A DNA stretch of 64,000 nucleotides, taken from the NCBI GenBank assembly GCA_016699445.1, contig CP064976.1:2222619-2286618 (forward strand). The letters are read 5' to 3'. Below are positions 20,538-57,491 of this stretch, one piece after another. Both the position numbers and the translations under genes were made by a program. The DNA comes from Deltaproteobacteria bacterium (lineage in GTDB: Bacteria; UBA10199; JACPAL01; GCA-016699445). A model generated the notes under the pieces. That model was not told the origin of the DNA. It worked only from the letters and a program-made list of their open reading frames with translations, and did not search any database. Positions within the stretch are counted from its first letter, which is position 1. Every line of letters begins with the position of its first letter.

Positions 20538-20615
20538 CTGTCATCGCGAGCGAAGCGTGGCGATCTCCCGATATTAAGTGTGAGATCGCCACGCCCTTCA
20601 GGCTCGCGATGACAG
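20538..20615. repeat. Hairpin repeat, family B copy 1 (long imperfect inverted repeat)
   Basis: CTGTCATCGCGAGCGAAGCGTGGCGATCTC ... GAGATCGCCACGCCCTTCAGGCTCGCGATGACAG; related copy at 44448-44526; lies 3' of the MqnC/E gene. Confidence 0.75.
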
Positions 20616-20618
20616 GCA

Positions 20619-21438
20619 ATGTTTCCCTATATAAATATGAATCTTCATTGTTTAAAAATTAAAAGCCAAACCGCCCCTCATAAAACCTTCTTTTTCCTCC
20701 ACGGTATTATGGGACGTGGGAGAAATTGGCAGCGCTTTGCGACAGAGCTAGTTCAGCGAAAACCAGATATCGAAGCGGTATTGGTCGATTTGCGTTTGCA
20801 TGGCGAGTCTCAAGGTTTTGATCCACCGCATACAGTACGAGCTTGTGGTGAAGATGTGGTAGGGGCAATTCATGAATTGCCCTTACAAAATGAAAAAAGT
20901 GATCGTTGGACATTCGTTCGGAGGGAAGGTGGCTCTGGAAGTTGCGCGACTCGCTCCTGATTTACTTTCAGCAATTTGGCTCATTGATTCATTTCCAGGT
21001 TTGTCTGCAAGGCATGGTGATGCTTGGAAAATGATTGAATGGCTTCAAAAAAATGAAGGTCCTTTTACAACACGGACAGAAGTGCTTAAAAAATTAAAAG
21101 AAGCGCAATTTCCCGAAGCCATCGCTGCGTGGATGGCGACCAATCTAGAACCCGAAGGAAAACTTTTAAAATGGATTTTCCCCGTGAAGGGCATCGCGAG
21201 TCTATTAGATGATTACGCCAAAACAGATTTGACCGACACACTCCTCAATCCACCATGTCCTATACATGTCGTGAAGGGGACAAAGTCGCCTTTGATTACG
21301 GATGATTTAATCCAGAAAATCCAACATTCAAAAACCAGATTTCCAATTTCCCTTCACTTCGTCGAAGCCGGACATTGGGTGCATTCTGAAAATCCGAAAG
21401 AATTGCTAAGAATAATGATGTCATCTTTTAAAGGATAA
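20619..21438 (+). pseudogene. Alpha/beta hydrolase, reading frame interrupted by a 28-bp palindromic insertion
   Basis: N-part FFFLHGIMGRGRNW..DLRLHGESQ (frame 0) and C-part KKVIVGHSFGGKVA.. (frame 1, GxSxG nucleophile); deleting 20859-20886 joins ..GEDV to KMKKVIVGHSFGG in frame. Confidence 0.65.
20859..20886. mobile_element. 28-bp palindromic insertion element, copy 1 (one mismatch)
   Basis: GTAGGGGCAATTCATGAATTGCCCTTAC; same element at 25885-25912; exact excision restores the hydrolase frame. Confidence 0.75.
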
Positions 21439-21621
21439 CATTTCTTCAAAATTACGAGGAGATGAGAGAATTTTTCCCTCGGGTGAGAAATATAAGTGAA
21501 TGGATTTAAAAGCACGATCGGGGCCAATAAATAACAGTCCTCGGTTATGTGTGGCAAAGTCTTTAGTAAGTCCTTAAGGAATTAACTTGAAATATACTCT
21601 ATTTATCCTACTATTAGGAGT

Positions 21622-21852
21622 ATGAAAGTTAAGACATCTATCACCCTTTCGGAAGATCTGTTAAGATCTATTGATGAACTGACGAAAGATTTCAAAAATC
21701 GATCCGATGTTATAGAGCAAGCTTTGAAGGAGTTTGTTCATAAAAAACTGAAAGAGATTAGAGACGAGAAGGATCGGCAAATTCTTAATAAAAAAGCACG
21801 TCAGCTCAATGAAGAAGCTTCCGATGTTTTAGGGTATCAGGCGGATTGGTAA
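21622..21852 (+). CDS. Ribbon-helix-helix (CopG-like) antitoxin
   Basis: 76 aa, N-terminal beta-strand/helix pattern [18 protein letters not shown]; immediately precedes a MazF/PemK-like toxin ORF. Confidence 0.6.
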
Positions 21853-22190
21853 GATGAAACGCGGCGAATTGTATCGAGTCTACAAACCTAACAAGAGAGA
21901 TCCAAAAGAGTTTCGTGTTTTTGCTATTGTCAGTCGTCAGGCTCTGATTGATTCTCAGTTTTCAACGGTCATTTGTGCCCCCTATTTATTCTCGCTATGA
22001 TGGTCTTTCAACCCAAATAGAAGTCGGCCCAGCCGAAGGGCTGAAGCATGAGAGTGCTGTGCATTGTGATGAGCTTGTTAGCCTTCCTAAAAGTCAGCTG
22101 ACACATTTTGTAGGGATGCTTTCTTTGCAAAAAATAAGACAGTTAGGCCATTCCCTTAAGATAGCGATCGATGTCGAAGCCCCTCATTAA
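21853..22190 (+). pseudogene. MazF/PemK-family toxin, frame-disrupted at a C5 run (~21985)
   Basis: ATG 21853 gives [27 protein letters not shown].. then stop; frame +1 continues ..[29 protein letters not shown], which matches the MazF C-terminal pattern. Confidence 0.6.
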
Positions 22191-22219
22191 GTTCATCAAA
22201 ACTTCTTTTTGGTGAACTT

Positions 22220-23473
22220 TTACACTTTTTCTGTTTCTTTAAAAGGAATCCAAAAAAGTAATATCATCGATGGAATGCCAGCAAAAAAGCTTAAGATGAA
22301 AAGATTGGTGTAGCCGATTTTTTCAACGATGATGCCACTGAAGCCGCCGAAGAGAGTGGAGCCTAGGCTCATGATGGCGGTGCCGATTGCAAAATGGGCG
22401 GCTTTATAGCGTGTGTCACACAATCTCATGAGATAGACAGTTAAGGCTGCCGCGCCTAATCCGGCAGCGATGTTTTCGTAAGCATGAGTGAGGGCAATGT
22501 AGGTCATGCCTTGCAAGGTGTTGGGATCGGGATGGTAAATGGAGAGTAAAATATAAGCTGCGATGTTGATGTTCATGAGAATGGTCAGTGGCCAGATAGC
22601 TTTTTTTAAACCTTGTTTATGAATCCACCAGCCACCGAGCATGGTGCCAGCAATGGTTGAGAAGGCTCCAACAAAGCCACCTAACCAAGCGATTTGTGGT
22701 TTGCTCACACCCAGCTCTCTCATCAAAAATGGCGTATTCATGGCGAAGAGAATTTCGTCTCCTAATTTATAGGTGATGATGAATATAAGAATGAGAACGA
22801 TTTTGTGCTGCGCCAAATAAACACGAAAAGAATCAATAAAATCTTGTTTGATAGCCTCAAAGTTTTTTTGTCGAGGGTGCTCGTTTTTCTTCAAAATGGG
22901 GAGAAGTTTGGTGTGAAGTAAAAAGAAAAGACCCATCGTCACAGCTCCAACAGAAAATCCCCAAAACCAATTGGCTACACCGGCAATAGCCACCAAGATA
23001 GTGCGTGTGTAAATCACTGCTCCACGATAGGCTAAAGTGCGTAAGCCTGAGTAGGCCGCTTGTTCGGATTTGTCTGGTAATCCTTCCAAATAAAAAGCAT
23101 CGATGGCGATGTCGTTGGTCGCTGCCAGAAAAGCCATTCCTATAAAAAGAAACGCGATGATTTGAAGTAAATGAGGTGAAGAATTTTTATCCGCAAATCC
23201 TGCTAAAAAAGAAATACTAAGAATAATCAGCGTAATAAAAAGCTGCATGCGCAACAGCCATTGGCGTTTCGTAGAAAAAATATCCAAGAAAGGTGCCCAG
23301 AAAAATTTAAGATTCCAAGGAATCCCTAAAAAATTCAGGAAGCCGAGGAAGGATTCACGCACGCCCATATCGGTAAAAAACACAGACGAAAGCACGCGTG
23401 TGATCATGTAAGGAAGACCTTCAGTAAAATAGGTAGAGGCAATCCAGAGCGACGTTCGCGATTTTTTGGTCAT
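22220..23473 (-). CDS. MFS-type permease, AmpG/PAT-like family
   Basis: 417 aa, ~12 predicted hydrophobic helices; N-terminal WIASTYFTEGLPYMI resembles AmpG signature. Confidence 0.6.
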   Translation of the reverse strand: MTKKSRTSLWIASTYFTEGLPYMITRVLSSVFFTDMGVRESFLGFLNFLGIPWNLKFFWAPFLDIFSTKRQWLLRMQLFITLIILSISFLAGFADKNSSPHLLQIIAFLFIGMAFLAATNDIAIDAFYLEGLPDKSEQAAYSGLRTLAYRGAVIYTRTILVAIAGVANWFWGFSVGAVTMGLFFLLHTKLLPILKKNEHPRQKNFEAIKQDFIDSFRVYLAQHKIVLILIFIITYKLGDEILFAMNTPFLMRELGVSKPQIAWLGGFVGAFSTIAGTMLGGWWIHKQGLKKAIWPLTILMNINIAAYILLSIYHPDPNTLQGMTYIALTHAYENIAAGLGAAALTVYLMRLCDTRYKAAHFAIGTAIMSLGSTLFGGFSGIIVEKIGYTNLFILSFFAGIPSMILLFWIPFKETEKV

Positions 23474-23573
23474 TTTTTAGATAATTACTATTTTACAGCG
23501 TATCTGGCTAGTGATGAATGATTGTTATGAAACAAAAGTTTGACTCATCATATGAGTCATTTATACTCATCAT

Positions 23574-23819
23574 ATGAGTCAACGATTACAAGTATTGCTT
23601 CCAGCTCAGGAATATAAGCAGTTTCGGAAAGTCTCTAAAGAACAAGGGTTAAGTTTGGGGGAATGGGTGAGAGTGACCTTAAGACAGGCTGTATCTCGTT
23701 TATCTTCCCAACCTGCTGATAAAAAACTAGAAGCTATCCGCAAGGCCAGTCGATTTTCTTATCCTTCCGGAGATATTGATCAAATGTTATCAGAAATTGA
23801 AAAAGGTTATCTCTCTTGA
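23574..23819 (+). CDS. Ribbon-helix-helix antitoxin (VapB-like)
   Basis: 81 aa; precedes and overlaps a PIN-domain ORF by 4 nt. Confidence 0.6.
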   Translation: MSQRLQVLLPAQEYKQFRKVSKEQGLSLGEWVRVTLRQAVSRLSSQPADKKLEAIRKASRFSYPSGDIDQMLSEIEKGYLS

Positions 23820-24198
23820 TTTTCATCGATTCGAATATCCCCATGTATCTTGTAGGTCAGGACCACCCCCATAAAACAGAGTGTATCGTTTTGCTCGAAA
23901 AAATGATTGTTGAAAAAGCACGATTTGTGACCAGTACGGAAGTCCTTCAGGAAATATTGCATCGTTATACAGCCATTCATCGGAAAGAAGCTATTTCAGC
24001 AGCATTTGATTCTCTTTATGGGATCGTGGATGAAGTTTTTGAGGTGACAGAAGCTGATGTGTTGGAAGCCAAGGATTTATTGCTGACAAACGAATAGATC
24101 TCCGCTCGCGATGCCTTGCATGGAAGTCTTATGAAGCGCCTCAAAATAAAGAAAATTTTCTCGTTTGATAAGGGTTTTGATGCTCTGCCATTTATCAA
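23816..24198 (+). pseudogene. VapC PIN-domain toxin with in-frame TAG (24095-24097)
   Basis: MIFIDSNIPMYL.. PIN N-terminus; after the TAG the same frame continues ISARDALHGSL...FDKGFDALPF, the PIN C-terminal motif region. Confidence 0.55.
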
Positions 24199-24258
24199 AA
24201 GAATTTCTTCTATAAAATGTTCATAAACGCACTTGAAAGTGTTTTGCTGGAAAATTTT

Positions 24259-24651
24259 TTATTTAGGGCCAATGATTTTAGCATCTGTCTTTTTGAAATC
24301 ACTGTCTAAGGTAAGAATCGGGCAACGCTCTTCCATGGCTAAGGCATAGGCAAAACAGTCACCTAAATTGATGGGGTAAGTCAGGCGGGCTTTAGCTGCT
24401 GTAACTGATTGATTTGTTGAAGGGGGTATAAATTGGATACCTGATGAAAGGATTTCGTCTTTAATTTTGGAGAAGAGTTTGGGCTGCTTGTCCTGAAGAA
24501 GAATGAGGGTTTCAGTGAGGTTGACGGTGCTCATCAGAAGCTCATGTCGATGAGCTTCTAGCTGATCTTCAACCCAGACGGCATGAGTTTCATTTAAAAA
24601 AAGAGCTAAGAGAGCTGAAGTATCAATGACCATATTATTTCCAAAGGTCAT
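24259..24651 (-). CDS. VapC PIN-domain toxin
   Basis: VIDTSALLALF.. and C-terminal LTLDSDFKK PIN motifs; overlaps upstream antitoxin. Confidence 0.75.
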   Translation of the reverse strand: MTFGNNMVIDTSALLALFLNETHAVWVEDQLEAHRHELLMSTVNLTETLILLQDKQPKLFSKIKDEILSSGIQFIPPSTNQSVTAAKARLTYPINLGDCFAYALAMEERCPILTLDSDFKKTDAKIIGPK

Positions 24652-24868
24652 CTTGAGACTTAAATTTTGTTTTTAGATTGAGATGCTGTTGTAAGGCCAA
24701 ACCTCTCCAAGTTCTGAAATCAGTATGCCTTGAGCGATTGATCATTTCTACGGCATCATGAATAGCTTTCCGAACAGCTTCTGACTTTTGAGTGACTCCA
24801 CATTTTTTCATGTAAGTTTTGAGATCTTTTTCAAACTCGGGAGTCATGTTAATGTTTAGTTGTTGCAT
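24635..24868 (-). CDS. VapB-type antitoxin
   Basis: 77 aa small ORF upstream of and overlapping the VapC gene. Confidence 0.55.
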   Translation of the reverse strand: MQQLNINMTPEFEKDLKTYMKKCGVTQKSEAVRKAIHDAVEMINRSRHTDFRTWRGLALQQHLNLKTKFKSQDDLWK

Positions 24869-24926
24869 ATAGCCTTAAATATAGGCCAGATATAGGTTGT
24901 TTTCAACAATAAAACTGCCTGATCTA

Positions 24927-26215
24927 TTACAACACATCCATAAACGCACTCACCGAAAAGACGGCCTTGCCTAATCCTGCTTCTCCATAACCGGGTGGGA
25001 TGGGGAGTTTGTATTTGTAAAAAGTCTCTCGATACACTTGGAGGAGGCGTAAGTAATAATCCAGAGGTGGCGGGCCTTCGTTGGTTTTGGCCAATGTGGT
25101 GTTCGGTTCGACACACCACACGGTGAAGCGGGGGCAGATGGATTGTGACATGAAAAAATCTAAACCCTCTTGCGTAGATCGAATCGCAGCTTCGATATCC
25201 GTGAAGCCAAAAGGTTTGGCCATCTCGATGCCGGCAACAAAATTAGGAATGACTTTTTCAGGGCCGAAAATTTTGGCTCCAGCCAGAATGCGGCGGATCC
25301 ATTCTTTTGACCGACATAGCGTGTTTTACCAGGACAGACGTGGTTAAAAATCTTTTCATCCCAGACTTCATAATTCGGGTGATAAATTTGATAGCCGGAA
25401 TCTTTTAAAATTTTAATTTCGTCATCAGGCAATCCTTGCACCACAGCCTTGCCAATCCAACGCCCGGGAAATTTTGCCTCGATGGCTTGAGCATATTGAG
25501 CGTAAAACTGTGCCTCGTTCATGCCACCCAGTTGTGAAGTGATACTGCCTCCGGTGACGGTATAAGCATGGCTCAGTTTTTGAGGATCATGTTTTTCAAT
25601 AATCTGCAGGGCTTCGATGACTTCATCTAAAGATTTGATTCCTGTATAAGAACGACCTTCGGCCTTTTGTTGGCGGTAGTTGTGGTTGATGTCGCAAAAC
25701 GCACATTCTTCTTCGGCTCCAAAATACTGACAGAGACGGAAGGCGGTAATGTAAATCAAATATCCCCACTCAATCGTGGGTGTGATATCGCTGACAGGTT
25801 TTCCATTAGCGAGGGGTTGTGCGTAATAATCCGGAAATGATGGGAGAAGAATGTCGCAGATTTTTTCGTCGTGAAAAAATAATTGTAGGGGCAATTCATG
25901 AATTGCCCCTACGGTGATTCGATACGGCGATTCCGGATTCACACGTACAGAAACTATCGTACGTTTAAAATCAAAAGGTCCTCCAATGAGGGCAATTTCT
26001 TCAGGTGCTGATTTTTTTTCTAGTTGTGAAAGATCTTTTTGAGCGGTGCGATCAAAGGAAAAAATAAAATAGGATTTTGGTTTGGCAGCTTTGCAGGCTT
26101 CCAAGGCTTCATTTGAAAATGAAATACCTAAACGTAGTAGATCTGTTTTGATGATCGCTTCAAATGGAATATCGCAGTATGTCTCCTTCAATATTAAAAA
26201 ATCTTCAGGCTTCAT
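24927..26215 (-). CDS. Hypothetical protein with Cys cluster (CX8CX2C) and TGG motif, possibly radical-SAM-like; contains the 28-bp palindrome in frame and a frame change near 25310
   Basis: ORF 25160..26215 reads through the palindrome (..ITVGAIHELPLQLFF..); C-terminal continuation in the frame of ORF 24927..25223 (..RRILAGAKIFGPEKVIPNFVAGIEMAKPFGFTDIEAAIRS..). Confidence 0.4.
25885..25912. mobile_element. 28-bp palindromic insertion element, copy 2 (perfect palindrome)
   Basis: GTAGGGGCAATTCATGAATTGCCCCTAC; encodes VGAIHELPL in the host ORF, the same peptide as copy 1. Confidence 0.75.
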
Positions 26216-41039: not shown

Positions 41040-41060
41040 TTTTTTTAAACTGGCAAAAAA

Positions 41061-41088
41061 GGTGGAGAATGGTTCTCCACCTTTTTTT
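41061..41088 (+). terminator. Rho-independent terminator
   Basis: GGTGGAGAA-TGG-TTCTCCACC hairpin followed by TTTTTTT. Confidence 0.65.
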
Positions 41089-43513: not shown

Positions 43514-43538
43514 TTATTGATGACACATGAATTTAAAA

Positions 43539-43566
43539 GGGCCGGCAATTGCCGGCCCTTTTATTT
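43539..43566. terminator. Rho-independent terminator (likely bidirectional)
   Basis: GGGCCGGCAATTGCCGGCCC palindrome followed by TTTTATTT. Confidence 0.65.
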
Positions 43567-46779: not shown

Positions 46780-46851
46780 GCGGGAGTAGCTCAGTGGTAG
46801 AGCGCCACCTTGCCAAGGTGGATGTCGCGGGTTCAAATCCCGTCTCCCGCT
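46780..46851 (+). tRNA. tRNA-Gly (anticodon GCC)
   Basis: Cloverleaf: acceptor GCGGGAG/CTCCCGC, D-arm GCTC..GAGC, anticodon loop TTGCCAA, T-arm GCGGG-TTCAAAT-CCCGT; no encoded CCA. Confidence 0.85.
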
Positions 46852-57409: not shown

Positions 57410-57491
57410 GTAGGGGCGCCATTCATGGCGCCCCTTTATTTACTGCGATAAATTAGGGCGTGATGAACACGCCCCTACCGTGGGGGTAGGG
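57410..57491. repeat. Three tandem GC-rich hairpins related to the 28-bp palindrome
   Basis: GTAGGGGCGCCATTCATGGCGCCCCT; AGGGCGTG-ATGAAC-ACGCCC; CCCTACC-GTGG-GGGTAGGG; directly 3' of thiolase stop. Confidence 0.6.

What the first reader, a model, noticed from the sequence alone, without database searches (positions are those of the whole stretch)
20859..25912. 28-bp perfect palindrome inserted inside two unrelated protein-coding genes
GTAGGGGCAATTCATGAATTGCCCCTAC is at 25885-25912 and, with one mismatch, at 20859-20886. Because it is a palindrome it encodes the same peptide (V)GAIHELPL(Q) in both host ORFs although they are on opposite strands. In the alpha/beta hydrolase gene, deleting exactly these 28 bp restores a continuous frame (..GEDV|KMKKVIVGHSFGG..), showing it is an insertion that split the gene. 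In the second gene the frame reads through it. This behaves like a miniature version of the in-frame palindromic elements described in Rickettsia; a related palindrome lies at 57410-57435.
Basis: seen in the sequence. Interest (0 to 1): 0.75.

Follow-up and report, generated by a model that had tools for sequence, protein, structure and literature searches.

The report
Translated 28-bp "double-foot" REP palindromes
The 28-base palindrome is a copy of a known kind of tiny bacterial mobile repeat (a "double-foot" REP, moved by a RAYT/TnpAREP enzyme) that sits inside two genes and is read as protein; the kind is already described, but this exact 28-mer occurs unchanged in well over a dozen bacterial phyla.

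Summary
GTAGGGGCAATTCATGAATTGCCCCTAC lies at 25885-25912, with a one-mismatch copy at 20859-20886; none is expected by chance.

It is a "double-foot" REP: a 5' GTAG, a hairpin with a G/C base, and a 3' CTAC. Quentin et al. 2018 described this type for RAYT/TnpAREP subclass 2.4. Its 20-nt core occurs in at least 120 stretches of species-representative genomes from at least 15 phylum-level groups, and conservation stops exactly at GTAG and CTAC. RAYT genes abut or contain the same 28-mer in 4 of those loci. Of 80 metagenome loci anchored on RAYT relatives, 34 carry a GTAGGGGC...GCCCCTAC palindrome, 29 of them inside the RAYT gene.

Only one of the three frames is free of stops, and it is the same on both strands. 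That explains the shared peptide.

The claim that the insertion split the hydrolase gene is wrong. A near-identical relative carries the same copy in frame, with 12 synonymous and 2 non-synonymous differences. The window's frameshift is a 2-nt difference in the adjacent poly-A run. Removing the 28 nt would leave the protein too short.

In the radical-SAM-like gene, orthologues carry at least five different palindrome cores at the same codon.

No RAYT lies in the window. This is a known kind of element and of moderate interest.

The parts
25885..25912 (.). Perfect 28-nt double-foot REP: GTAG foot, GGGGCAATTCA stem with centre CATG, CTAC foot. It is translated on the minus strand as VGAIHELPL(Q) within the radical-SAM-like gene.
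   Evidence: Predicted DNA hairpin -11.9 kcal/mol, z = -6.4. The AF2 model puts GAIHELP at the tip of a beta-hairpin, E98-102 / E110-114.
20859..20886 (.). Copy of the same REP with one substitution in the right foot region (CCCTTAC). It lies in the alpha/beta-hydrolase gene and is read on the plus strand as VGAIHELPL(Q).
   Evidence: The substitution is shared with relative L125 and is synonymous (CTA>TTA). Predicted hairpin -8.4 kcal/mol.
20887..20898 (+). A-rich run (AAAATGAAAAAA) just after the REP. It is 2 nt shorter than in the near-identical relative (AC AAT AAA AAA AAA). This is the actual site of the hydrolase frameshift.
   Evidence: DNA alignment A3; codon view.
20619..21438 (+). 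Alpha/beta-hydrolase gene (Abhydrolase_6/Abhydrolase_1), present as two overlapping ORFs, 20619-20960 and 20872-21438.
   Evidence: Window versus L125: 12 synonymous and 2 non-synonymous differences.
24927..26215 (-). Radical-SAM-like gene next to mqnA. ORF 25160-26215 carries the REP. The C-terminal part continues in ORF 24927-25223 after a 1-nt frameshift in an A-run near 25305-25308.
57410..57435 (+). Single-foot canonical long REP (GTAG + GGGGCGCC-ATTCAT-GGCGCCCC) directly after the stop of the upstream gene and followed by TTTATTT. It looks like an intrinsic terminator.
57456..57478 (-). Inverted partner REP (minus strand GTAGGGGCGTGTTCATCACGCCC). With 57410-57435 it forms an inverted REP dimer (REPIN-like) with the feet on the outside and a 20-nt spacer.

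Best explanation
Both 28-mers are non-autonomous 'double-foot' REP elements. Each has a 5' GTAG foot, a hairpin whose base is G/C pairs, and the mirror-image foot CTAC. This is the REP type associated with RAYT/TnpAREP (HUH-Y1 single-strand DNA nuclease/ligase) subclass 2.4, which is Bertels group 4.

Shown here:
- The unit is exactly 28 nt.
- It folds as a 12-bp hairpin on either strand.
- The identical unit is dispersed through many genomes, both between genes and inside them.
- It has no target-site duplication.
- It is physically linked to RAYT genes in other genomes, flanking them and sitting in frame inside them.
- Palindromes with the same feet but other cores are specific to each genome and each RAYT.

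Inferred, by analogy with E. coli TnpAREP and IS200/IS605 TnpA: a RAYT encoded elsewhere in this genome, or formerly present, recognises the GTAG guide plus hairpin on single-stranded DNA. It cuts and rejoins there and so copies the element to new sites.

Inside genes only one of three phases lacks stop codons, and it is the same phase in both orientations. Surviving intragenic copies therefore all encode VGAIHELPL and sit where the protein tolerates them. Here those places are a beta-hairpin tip in the radical-SAM-like protein and the end of a helix plus the following loop in the hydrolase.

Copies are then inherited vertically and either decay or are replaced. The radical-SAM site has been occupied by at least five different cores in different lineages. 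The hydrolase frameshift is a separate homopolymer indel or sequencing error.
For: 1. Unit and spread. My own estimate of the chance expectation is about 0.5 matches. GTAG is kept in 102-108 and CTAC in 100-114 of 121 copies, and positions -5 and +5 are unconstrained.
2. RAYT link from the REP side. L013 has a RAYT flanked on both sides. L022, L091 and L093 have a REP inside the ORF. Pfam Y1_Tnp scores 20-35 bits against a cut-off of 23. NCBIfam REP_Tyr_transpos is the best family.
3. RAYT link from the RAYT side. Of 80 metagenome loci, 34 carry a GTAGGGGC..GCCCCTAC palindrome, 29 inside the ORF and 13 within 300 nt. Inside and flanking copies share the same core.
4. Motifs. NH[FI]H, WQ and YIxxNP, together with 'double foot' REPs and REPs 'inserted in tnpAREP', match the published description of subclass 2.4 (PMC6006769).
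5. Insertion signature. No target-site duplication: 1 of 199 copies has direct-repeat flanks of 3 nt, against 3.1 expected.
6. Presence or absence among orthologues. In a transaldolase-like protein the element adds a net 8 and 9 residues at two sites.
7. Genome-specific cores. Within a contig, 10 of 24 pairs share a core, against 2.6% of pairs between contigs.
8. Tolerated positions in the proteins and purifying selection on the REP-bearing hydrolase allele.
Against: - No RAYT gene lies in the 64-kb window (tblastn). The rest of the genome could not be read.
- Only two double-foot copies and one inverted single-foot dimer are visible here, so abundance in this genome is unknown.
- Transposition of REPs by RAYTs has never been shown directly for this subclass. 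The link is by association.
- In both window genes the element adds little or no net length (0 residues against the 65%-identical hydrolase orthologue; +2 to +6 residues in the radical-SAM loop). A simple 28-nt insertion does not explain that.
- Perfect symmetry through the central 4 nt (81 of 148 family members) is not explained by hairpin stability alone.
- NCBIfam scores (60-70 bits) are below the RAYT equivalog cut-off of 80.
Confidence: 0.8

Rival explanations
1. Minimal MITE: two 14-bp terminal inverted repeats of a DDE-transposase insertion sequence joined together and moved by cut-and-paste.
For: It is a perfect palindrome with sharp ends, as two joined inverted repeats would be. Half-elements occur in tandem in some viral contigs.
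Against: There is no target-site duplication: direct-repeat flanks of 3 nt or more occur in 1 of 199 copies, against 3.1 expected. No DDE transposase was seen beside the copies; no dedicated search for DDE genes was made. The only transposase-like genes found beside the copies are HUH-Y1 RAYTs.
Confidence: 0.04
2. The palindrome at the radical-SAM site is one ancient insertion that evolves in place. Arm-to-arm correction (template switching in a quasi-palindrome) or selection for the hairpin keeps it perfect while the core drifts. There is no repeated re-insertion.
For: Orthologues hold different cores at the same codon and phase, with a constant right junction CTAC|AA TTA. Within genomes, variants differ by compensatory double changes. 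L124 and L263 share a core, as expected for vertical descent.
Against: The feet and GGGC base are identical in all five orthologues although the 12-nt cores share almost nothing. The hydrolase copy and the L273 remnant show that resident copies pick up uncorrected mismatches. The cores found at the site are variants that also occur elsewhere in the family (GCATGGCCATGC; the GACCGGCCGGTC-like core). The window's two copies have the same core.
Confidence: 0.2
3. The element is a host-selected functional site (protein operator, RNA-stability hairpin or terminator) that is no longer mobile and is kept for what it does.
For: The single-foot copy at 57410-57435 looks like an intrinsic terminator. 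REPs are reported to affect mRNA stability and termination (PMC3733652).
Against: The intragenic copies have no T-run. The core is highly variable between genomes (74 cores in 148 instances), so it is not a fixed binding site. The link to RAYT and the presence/absence pattern point to mobility. The two readings are not exclusive for intergenic copies.
Confidence: 0.1
4. Sequencing or assembly artefact, such as adapter or chimeric sequence.
For: The palindrome is identical in many metagenome-assembled genomes. The window has at least three homopolymer frameshifts.
Against: It is present in isolate genomes (Nostoc, Phormidium, Pseudanabaena, Tychonema) and on megabase contigs. Mutated copies are shared by relatives. 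It lies in frame under purifying selection and has a specific gene association.
Confidence: 0.01

Closest known systems
'Double-foot' REP sequences of TnpAREP/RAYT subclass 2.4 (Quentin et al. 2018, PMC6006769; Bertels et al. 2017 group 4, PMC5581495)
   Same: 5' GT[AG]G with its reverse complement C[TC]AC at the 3' end. A long stem whose base is three or more G-C pairs. [quoted passage not shown] Found in cyanobacteria and scattered across many phyla. RAYT motifs NH[IFV]H, WQ, YIxNNP.
   Different: The window holds no RAYT. Not found in the papers read here: that one 28-mer is identical across at least 15 phylum-level groups and occurs in IMG/VR contigs; that the family is symmetric through its very centre; and that different cores succeed one another at one orthologous codon.
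GTAG-tagged REPs and intragenic REPs (Di Nocera et al. 2013, PMC3733652)
   Same: A GTAG tag plus a stem-loop. Single units and inverted dimers occur. Some copies lie inside ORFs and encode extra residues in otherwise intact proteins.
   Different: In the classical families the GTAG is unpaired at one end only. The 28-mer sequence was not found in that paper's text or in the supplementary files held as text. The family figures could not be read.
REPINs (Bertels & Rainey 2011, PMC3116915)
   Same: The dimer at 57410-57478 is two inverted REPs with a spacer, which is the proposed mobile unit. [quoted passage not shown]
   Different: The 28-mer is a single hairpin, not a doublet. REPIN populations are described as lineage-specific and vertically inherited, whereas this 28-mer is shared between phyla.
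Rickettsia palindromic elements (RPE; cited in PMC3733652 as its refs 13 and 14)
   Same: Palindromic repeats inserted in frame in protein-coding genes and translated, apparently at tolerated positions.
   Different: From my own knowledge, RPE-1 type elements are about 100-150 bp and are confined to Rickettsia. The short RPE-4 and RPE-6 are classed as CGTC-type REPs. There is no sequence relationship and no known RAYT link.
Small dispersed repeats of Nostoc (Elhai et al. 2008; paper not held)
   Same: From memory: repeats of 21-27 nt, some of them palindromic, nested inside other repeats and occasionally inside genes. Here many Nostoc copies sit within a larger shared repeat, and 10% of all copies sit at the centre of longer palindromes.
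   Different: I could not check whether any SDR family equals this 28-mer.

Membership tests
Double-foot REP of RAYT/TnpAREP subclass 2.4 | 5' GT[AG]G foot at the base of a hairpin | tested here: met
   GTAG at 25885-25888 and 20859-20862. It is kept in 102-108 of 121 copies elsewhere.
Double-foot REP of RAYT/TnpAREP subclass 2.4 | Reverse-complement foot C[TC]AC at the 3' end | tested here: met
   CTAC at 25909-25912 and TTAC...AC (CCCTTAC) at 20880-20886. It is kept in 100-114 of 121 copies.
Double-foot REP of RAYT/TnpAREP subclass 2.4 | Long stem with three or more consecutive G-C pairs at its base | tested here: met
   GGGGC/GCCCC. Predicted 12-bp stem, -11.9 kcal/mol as DNA.
Double-foot REP of RAYT/TnpAREP subclass 2.4 | The same REP flanks or lies inside a subclass 2.4 RAYT gene | tested here: met
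   Met in other genomes: L013, L022, L091, L093 and L277. Of 80 RAYT loci, 34 carry family members, 29 of them inside the ORF. RAYT motifs match.
Double-foot REP of RAYT/TnpAREP subclass 2.4 | Cognate RAYT encoded in the same genome | not testable with these tools
   None in the window (tblastn E<=1e-5 against all held DNA and E<=1e-3 in an earlier run).
Double-foot REP of RAYT/TnpAREP subclass 2.4 | Many dispersed copies within the genome | tested here: inconclusive
   The 64 kb hold two double-foot copies with an identical core and one inverted single-foot dimer. The genome-wide count is unknown.
Double-foot REP of RAYT/TnpAREP subclass 2.4 | Mobility: presence or absence at orthologous sites | tested here: met
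   Hydrolase orthologues L126 and L127 lack it. Distant radical-SAM orthologues have a 20-24-residue loop with no palindrome. Net gains of 8 and 9 residues in P0241.
Rickettsia palindromic elements (RPE) | Sequence and size of an RPE family; Rickettsia host | tested here: not met
   The element is 28 nt, is GTAG-tagged, and occurs in a non-Rickettsia genome and in many phyla. Only the in-frame habit is shared.
MITE (derivative of a DDE insertion sequence) | Terminal inverted repeats flanked by a target-site duplication | tested here: not met
   Direct-repeat flanks of 3 nt: 1 of 199 copies, against 3.1 expected.
REPIN (inverted REP doublet) | Two REPs in inverted orientation, separated by a short spacer and able to form a long hairpin | tested here: met
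   This applies to 57410-57478 only: feet on the outside, 20-nt spacer, predicted -22.9 kcal/mol. The 28-mers themselves are single hairpins.

The most novel reading that the evidence does not exclude
Double-foot REPs behave as exchangeable cassettes. Each genome's RAYT repeatedly overwrites a resident copy at its GTAG/CTAC feet with its own current core. One codon of a conserved gene is therefore re-occupied again and again: at least five cores at the radical-SAM site, and a perfect copy in the window where the closest relative holds only a decayed half.

A few RAYT-REP pairs, such as the AATTCATGAATT type, spread between phyla with the 28-mer unchanged. Phage-like elements may carry them, since 19 IMG/VR contigs hold the core. 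The symmetry through the exact centre would then reflect a strand-symmetric copying step that has not been described for HUH-Y1 enzymes.
Probability: 0.25. Interest if true: 0.6.

Novelty: new member of a known kind. Interest (0 to 1): 0.35.

Why it matters
As filed, it matters little. It is one more case of a published class: double-foot REPs linked to RAYT subclass 2.4, and REPs translated inside genes.

It is a useful caution for annotation. The peptide VGAIHELPLQ and its relatives (VGAxxxxPLQ) in unrelated proteins are repeat-derived, not homologous motifs. The apparent gene split here is a homopolymer indel.

Three side results could be worth a dedicated study if they hold:
- One 28-mer is conserved base for base across many phyla, while its RAYTs are only 40-50% identical to each other.
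- Cores are specific to each genome and each RAYT, and they turn over at a single orthologous codon. That gives a natural system for asking how RAYTs choose targets and whether they replace resident copies.
- The family is symmetric through its centre, which hints at how the copies are made.

Tried and rejected
- Looked for a RAYT in the window by motif regex and tblastn: none.
- Tried to identify the source genome by exact look-up of the window's MqnA protein: not on record. blastn of the window against the 120 genome loci: no overlap.
- An Rfam gathering-threshold scan of the whole window found only a tRNA at 46780-46851. No RNA family covers the palindromes.
- A literature search for the string GTAGGGGC gave only primer-type hits.
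- Elhai et al. 2008 could not be read.
- Di Nocera's text and held supplements do not contain this sequence or peptide.
- Considered a 'replacement' mechanism in which 28 nt overwrite 28 nt, because the hydrolase keeps its length. I did not adopt it as general, because two sites in the transaldolase-like protein P0241 show net gains of 8 and 9 residues.
I used the relative P0121 instead.
- A protein-motif explanation was rejected: most copies are intergenic and occur in both orientations.
Full report
**1. The observation**

GTAGGGGCAATTCATGAATTGCCCCTAC is at 25885-25912. A copy with one substitution (CCCTTAC) is at 20859-20886. No match with up to three mismatches appeared in 100 shuffles of the window.

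The first copy lies in a minus-strand ORF (25160-26215) that reads straight through it as VGAIHELPLQ. The second lies in a plus-strand alpha/beta-hydrolase gene that appears as two overlapping ORFs, 20619-20960 and 20872-21438.

The sequence itself shows why the peptide is the same. Frame 2 of the palindrome contains TAG and frame 3 contains TGA. Only GTA GGG GCA ATT CAT GAA TTG CCC CTA is open, and the reverse complement is the same sequence.

As single-stranded DNA the unit is predicted to form a 12-bp hairpin with a 4-nt loop. The energy is -11.9 kcal/mol (z = -6.4) for the perfect copy and -8.4 kcal/mol for the mutated copy.

**2. How widespread it is**

The 20-nt core GGGCAATTCATGAATTGCCC was searched in one genome per species of bacteria and archaea. 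By my own arithmetic about 0.5 chance matches are expected in 596 Gb.

The record titles cover:
- cyanobacteria (Nostoc, Chamaesiphon, Pseudanabaena, Phormidium, Tychonema);
- Chloroflexota (Anaerolineae, Dehalococcoidia, Chloroflexia);
- Planctomycetota (Scalindua, Brocadiaceae, Thermogutta);
- Omnitrophota, Nitrospirota, Nitrospinota, Zixibacteria, Patescibacteria;
- Acidobacteriota (Aminicenantes, Terriglobia) and Spirochaetota;
- Bacteroidota and Ignavibacteria;
- Coxiellaceae and Spongiibacteraceae;
- Desulfosporosinus, Geobacter and other 'Deltaproteobacteria';
- Sumerlaeota, Glassbacteria and Binatia.

Several are isolates, and some hits lie on megabase contigs, so this is not an artefact of binning.

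In 121 copies with flanks, the four bases before the core are G/T/A/G in 102-108 cases. The four bases after it are C/T/A/C in 100-114 cases. The next positions outward are unconstrained. The unit is therefore exactly the 28-mer.

Nineteen IMG/VR contigs also carry the core. One has ten copies in 14.8 kb of 60% G+C DNA.

**3. What it is**

A motif search of the fetched loci found four ORFs of the IS200-like Y1 (HUH) type:
- In L013 the gene is flanked on both sides by the 28-mer or a compensatory variant of it. The nearest copies are 59 nt upstream and 5 nt downstream.
- In L093 one copy lies 53 nt upstream of the tblastn match (37 nt before the ORF) and one lies in frame inside the gene.
- In L091 a copy lies inside the gene.
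- In L022 the 28-mer lies 199 nt away, and a different palindrome with the same feet lies inside the gene.

Three of the four proteins pass the Pfam Y1_Tnp cut-off. Their best NCBIfam family is 'REP-associated tyrosine transposase', though below the equivalog cut-off. They are 40-50% identical to each other.

I then approached the link from the other side. Eighty metagenome loci were fetched with an alignment of these proteins. Of these, 34 contain a GTAGGGGC...GCCCCTAC palindrome with at most one mismatch. In 29 loci it lies inside the RAYT coding region, and in 13 it lies within 300 nt of the gene. Inside and flanking copies of a locus usually share the same 12-nt core.

This is what Quentin et al. 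2018 describe for TnpAREP subclass 2.4, which is Bertels group 4. Its motifs are NH[IFV]H, WQ and YIxNNP. [quoted passage not shown] REPs are inserted within the tnpAREP genes without disrupting the frame (PMC6006769). GTAG-tagged REPs inside unrelated ORFs were catalogued by Di Nocera et al. 2013 (PMC3733652).

The window also holds the other REP type of this subclass. This is a single-foot long REP at 57410-57435, directly after a gene, followed by a T-rich run and terminator-like. It has an inverted partner at 57456-57478. Together they form a REPIN-like dimer.

No RAYT gene is present in the window.

**4. The family around it**

The pattern GTAGGGGC-N12-GCCCCTAC was searched in IMG/VR and gave 148 instances with 74 different cores. 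Of these, 81 are perfect palindromes through the central four bases and 114 have at least five of six pairs. AATTCATGAATT is the most common core.

Cores are specific to a genome. Within a contig, 10 of 24 pairs are identical, against 2.6% of pairs between contigs. Several within-contig differences are compensatory double changes.

Among 199 non-redundant copies there is no target-site duplication: one copy has 3-nt direct-repeat flanks, against 3.1 expected. Twenty copies sit in the middle of a longer palindrome (inverted flanks of 4 nt or more), against 0.8 expected. The base before GTAG is a pyrimidine in 143 of 199 copies.

**5.

The closest relative (P0121/L125) matches the read-through translation at 98%. 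It carries the same element at the same place with the same C>T substitution plus one more substitution. There it is read in frame as ...GEDVVGAIHELPLHNKKKVIVGHSFGG.

The window differs by two bases in the A-run immediately after the element: AAAAT--GAAAAAAGTG against ACAATAAAAAAAAAGTG. That difference is the frameshift.

Across the shared 708 nt there are 12 synonymous and 2 non-synonymous differences. Both substitutions inside the element are synonymous. The REP-bearing allele has therefore been under purifying selection.

Orthologues at 65% and 58% identity (L126, L127) have no palindrome but have 17 and 15 codons between the conserved DV and GHS. L125 has 17 and the window's read-through has 16. 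Deleting the 28 nt would leave 7. That the deletion restores the frame is a coincidence of 28 and -2 both being 1 modulo 3.

An AF2 model of P0121 (pLDDT 90) places the REP-coded VGAIHE at the end of a helix and LPLHNKKK in the loop before the strand that leads into the GHSFG nucleophile motif.

Two more frameshifts lie within 5 kb, and both are in homopolymers. One is in the radical-SAM-like gene, in an A-run near 25305-25308. The other is in a MazF-like gene, in a C5 run at 21978-21982. Whether these three are real mutations or sequencing errors cannot be decided from the sequence.

**6. The radical-SAM-like gene**

Its orthologues are about 420-440 residues long and lie next to mqnA in all the loci read. 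They have a hypervariable loop exactly at this site.

Distant orthologues have a 20-24-residue beta-hairpin with no palindrome. Closer ones carry, at the same codon and in the same phase, with the same right junction CTAC|AA TTA/CTT, palindromes with different cores:
- window: AATTCATGAATT
- L124: GCATGGCCATGC (perfect)
- L260: TCAATATATTGA (perfect)
- L261: GCGATTAATCGC (one foot mismatch)
- L262: AACCGGCCGGTC (one mismatch)
- L122: a degenerate copy
- L263: two fused copies

The closest orthologue, L273 (84% amino-acid identity), keeps only the right half, GAATTTCCCTTAC|AATTATTTTTT, with two mismatches. The same core was probably there in the common ancestor. It has decayed in L273 yet is perfect in the window.

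The AF2 model (pLDDT 81) puts GAIHELP at the tip of a beta-hairpin, with a local dip in confidence.

Two readings remain: repeated re-invasion or overwriting of a resident copy, or evolution in place with arm-to-arm correction. I favour the first for three reasons. The feet stay identical while the cores share nothing. Resident copies visibly decay. The window's two copies share one core.

**7. Insertion or replacement**

In the Omnitrophica transaldolase-like protein P0241, which has three in-frame copies, two sites show clean net gains of 8 and 9 residues over orthologues. The element therefore does insert.

In the two window genes the net change is about 0 and +2 to +6 residues. Either neighbouring codons were lost, or an older copy was overwritten. 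The data do not settle which.

About a fifth of the sampled copies (24 of 122) lie in stop-free stretches of at least 150 codons. The hosts include a GltB-like, a SelA-like and a type III restriction-enzyme-like ORF, named from my own reading of their sequences.

**8. Mechanism, with status of each step**

Shown:
- the anatomy of the unit;
- its dispersal, and the absence of a target-site duplication;
- its link to RAYT genes;
- genome-specific cores;
- the single open frame;
- tolerated positions in the two proteins;
- vertical inheritance followed by decay.

Inferred from E. coli TnpAREP and IS200/IS605 TnpA, as summarised in PMC6006769:
- recognition of the GTAG guide plus hairpin on single-stranded DNA;
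- cleavage and rejoining by the HUH-Y1 enzyme.

Unknown:
- the source of the enzyme in this genome;
- how the centre of the palindrome is kept symmetric;
- how one 28-mer remains identical across phyla.

**9. Verdict**

The kind is already published, and this is a new instance with some undescribed population-level features. Interest 0.35.

Noticed in passing
window 20540-20617: A second, unrelated composite palindrome lies between the mqnC-like gene and the hydrolase start. Its outer arms are GTCATCGCGAGC / GCTCGCGATGAC and its inner arms are GCGTGGCGATCTC / GAGATCGCCACGC. Its first 18 nt occur in 9 IMG/VR contigs, most of them inside a similar MITE-like palindrome of about 80-100 nt that ends ...CTCGCAATGAC. 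It looks like another widely dispersed repeat family.
   Followed up: partly
window 20887-20898, about 25305-25308, 21978-21982: Three frameshifts within 5 kb, all in homopolymer runs. They affect the hydrolase (poly-A), the radical-SAM-like gene (A4 where A5 is expected) and a MazF-like toxin (C5 where C4 is expected). They are either assembly errors or recent slippage mutations.
   Followed up: partly
window 20719-21438 versus L125: Divergence from the near-identical relative is uneven. There are 11 differences in the 168 nt up to and including the REP, but 3 in the 540 nt after it. Upstream of window 20719 the relative's contig is unrelated. This suggests recombination breakpoints, one of them at or near the REP.
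   Followed up: partly
window 21622-22190, 23574-24097, 24259-24868: Three toxin-antitoxin-like pairs, judged from ORF sequences only: antitoxin + MazF-like, antitoxin + PIN-like, and VapBC-like. They are packed between the menaquinone (futalosine) genes. Orthologous loci L260 and L273 also have PemK or PIN genes next to the radical-SAM-like gene.
   Followed up: no
window 24927-26215 and loci L121-L124, L260-L263: The radical-SAM-like protein (about 430 residues; weak or no Pfam hit) is adjacent to mqnA (VitK2_biosynth) in all the loci read, and a CofH_C-type radical-SAM gene lies nearby in most of them. It may be an uncharacterised enzyme linked to the menaquinone pathway.
   Followed up: no
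L135, L143, L144 (IMG/VR): Half-elements occur in tandem with full copies, for example ...GAATTGCCCCTAC ATGAATTGCCCCAAC. This hints that the 14-15-nt half is a unit of duplication or cleavage.
   Followed up: no
L136 (IMG/VR, 14.8 kb, 60% G+C): Ten copies of the A/T-cored 28-mer lie in one putative viral contig, several of them beside another short repeat (taaatcctgt-type). Density is far higher than in the window.
   Followed up: no
L017, L018, L029, L035, L102, L106 (Nostoc); L013, L014, L055 (Chamaesiphon): In cyanobacteria the 28-mer often sits at the exact centre of a longer repeat shared between loci, or of a longer palindrome with inverted flanks of up to 19 nt. It is nested inside other repeats.
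   Followed up: partly
window 27878-27915, 41055-41087, 43534-43563: Other long perfect hairpins or palindromes without GTAG feet: an 18-bp stem, a 15-bp stem flanked by A and T runs, and a 30-nt perfect palindrome TAAAAGGGCCGGCAATTGCCGGCCCTTTTA. They are probably bidirectional terminators.
   Followed up: no
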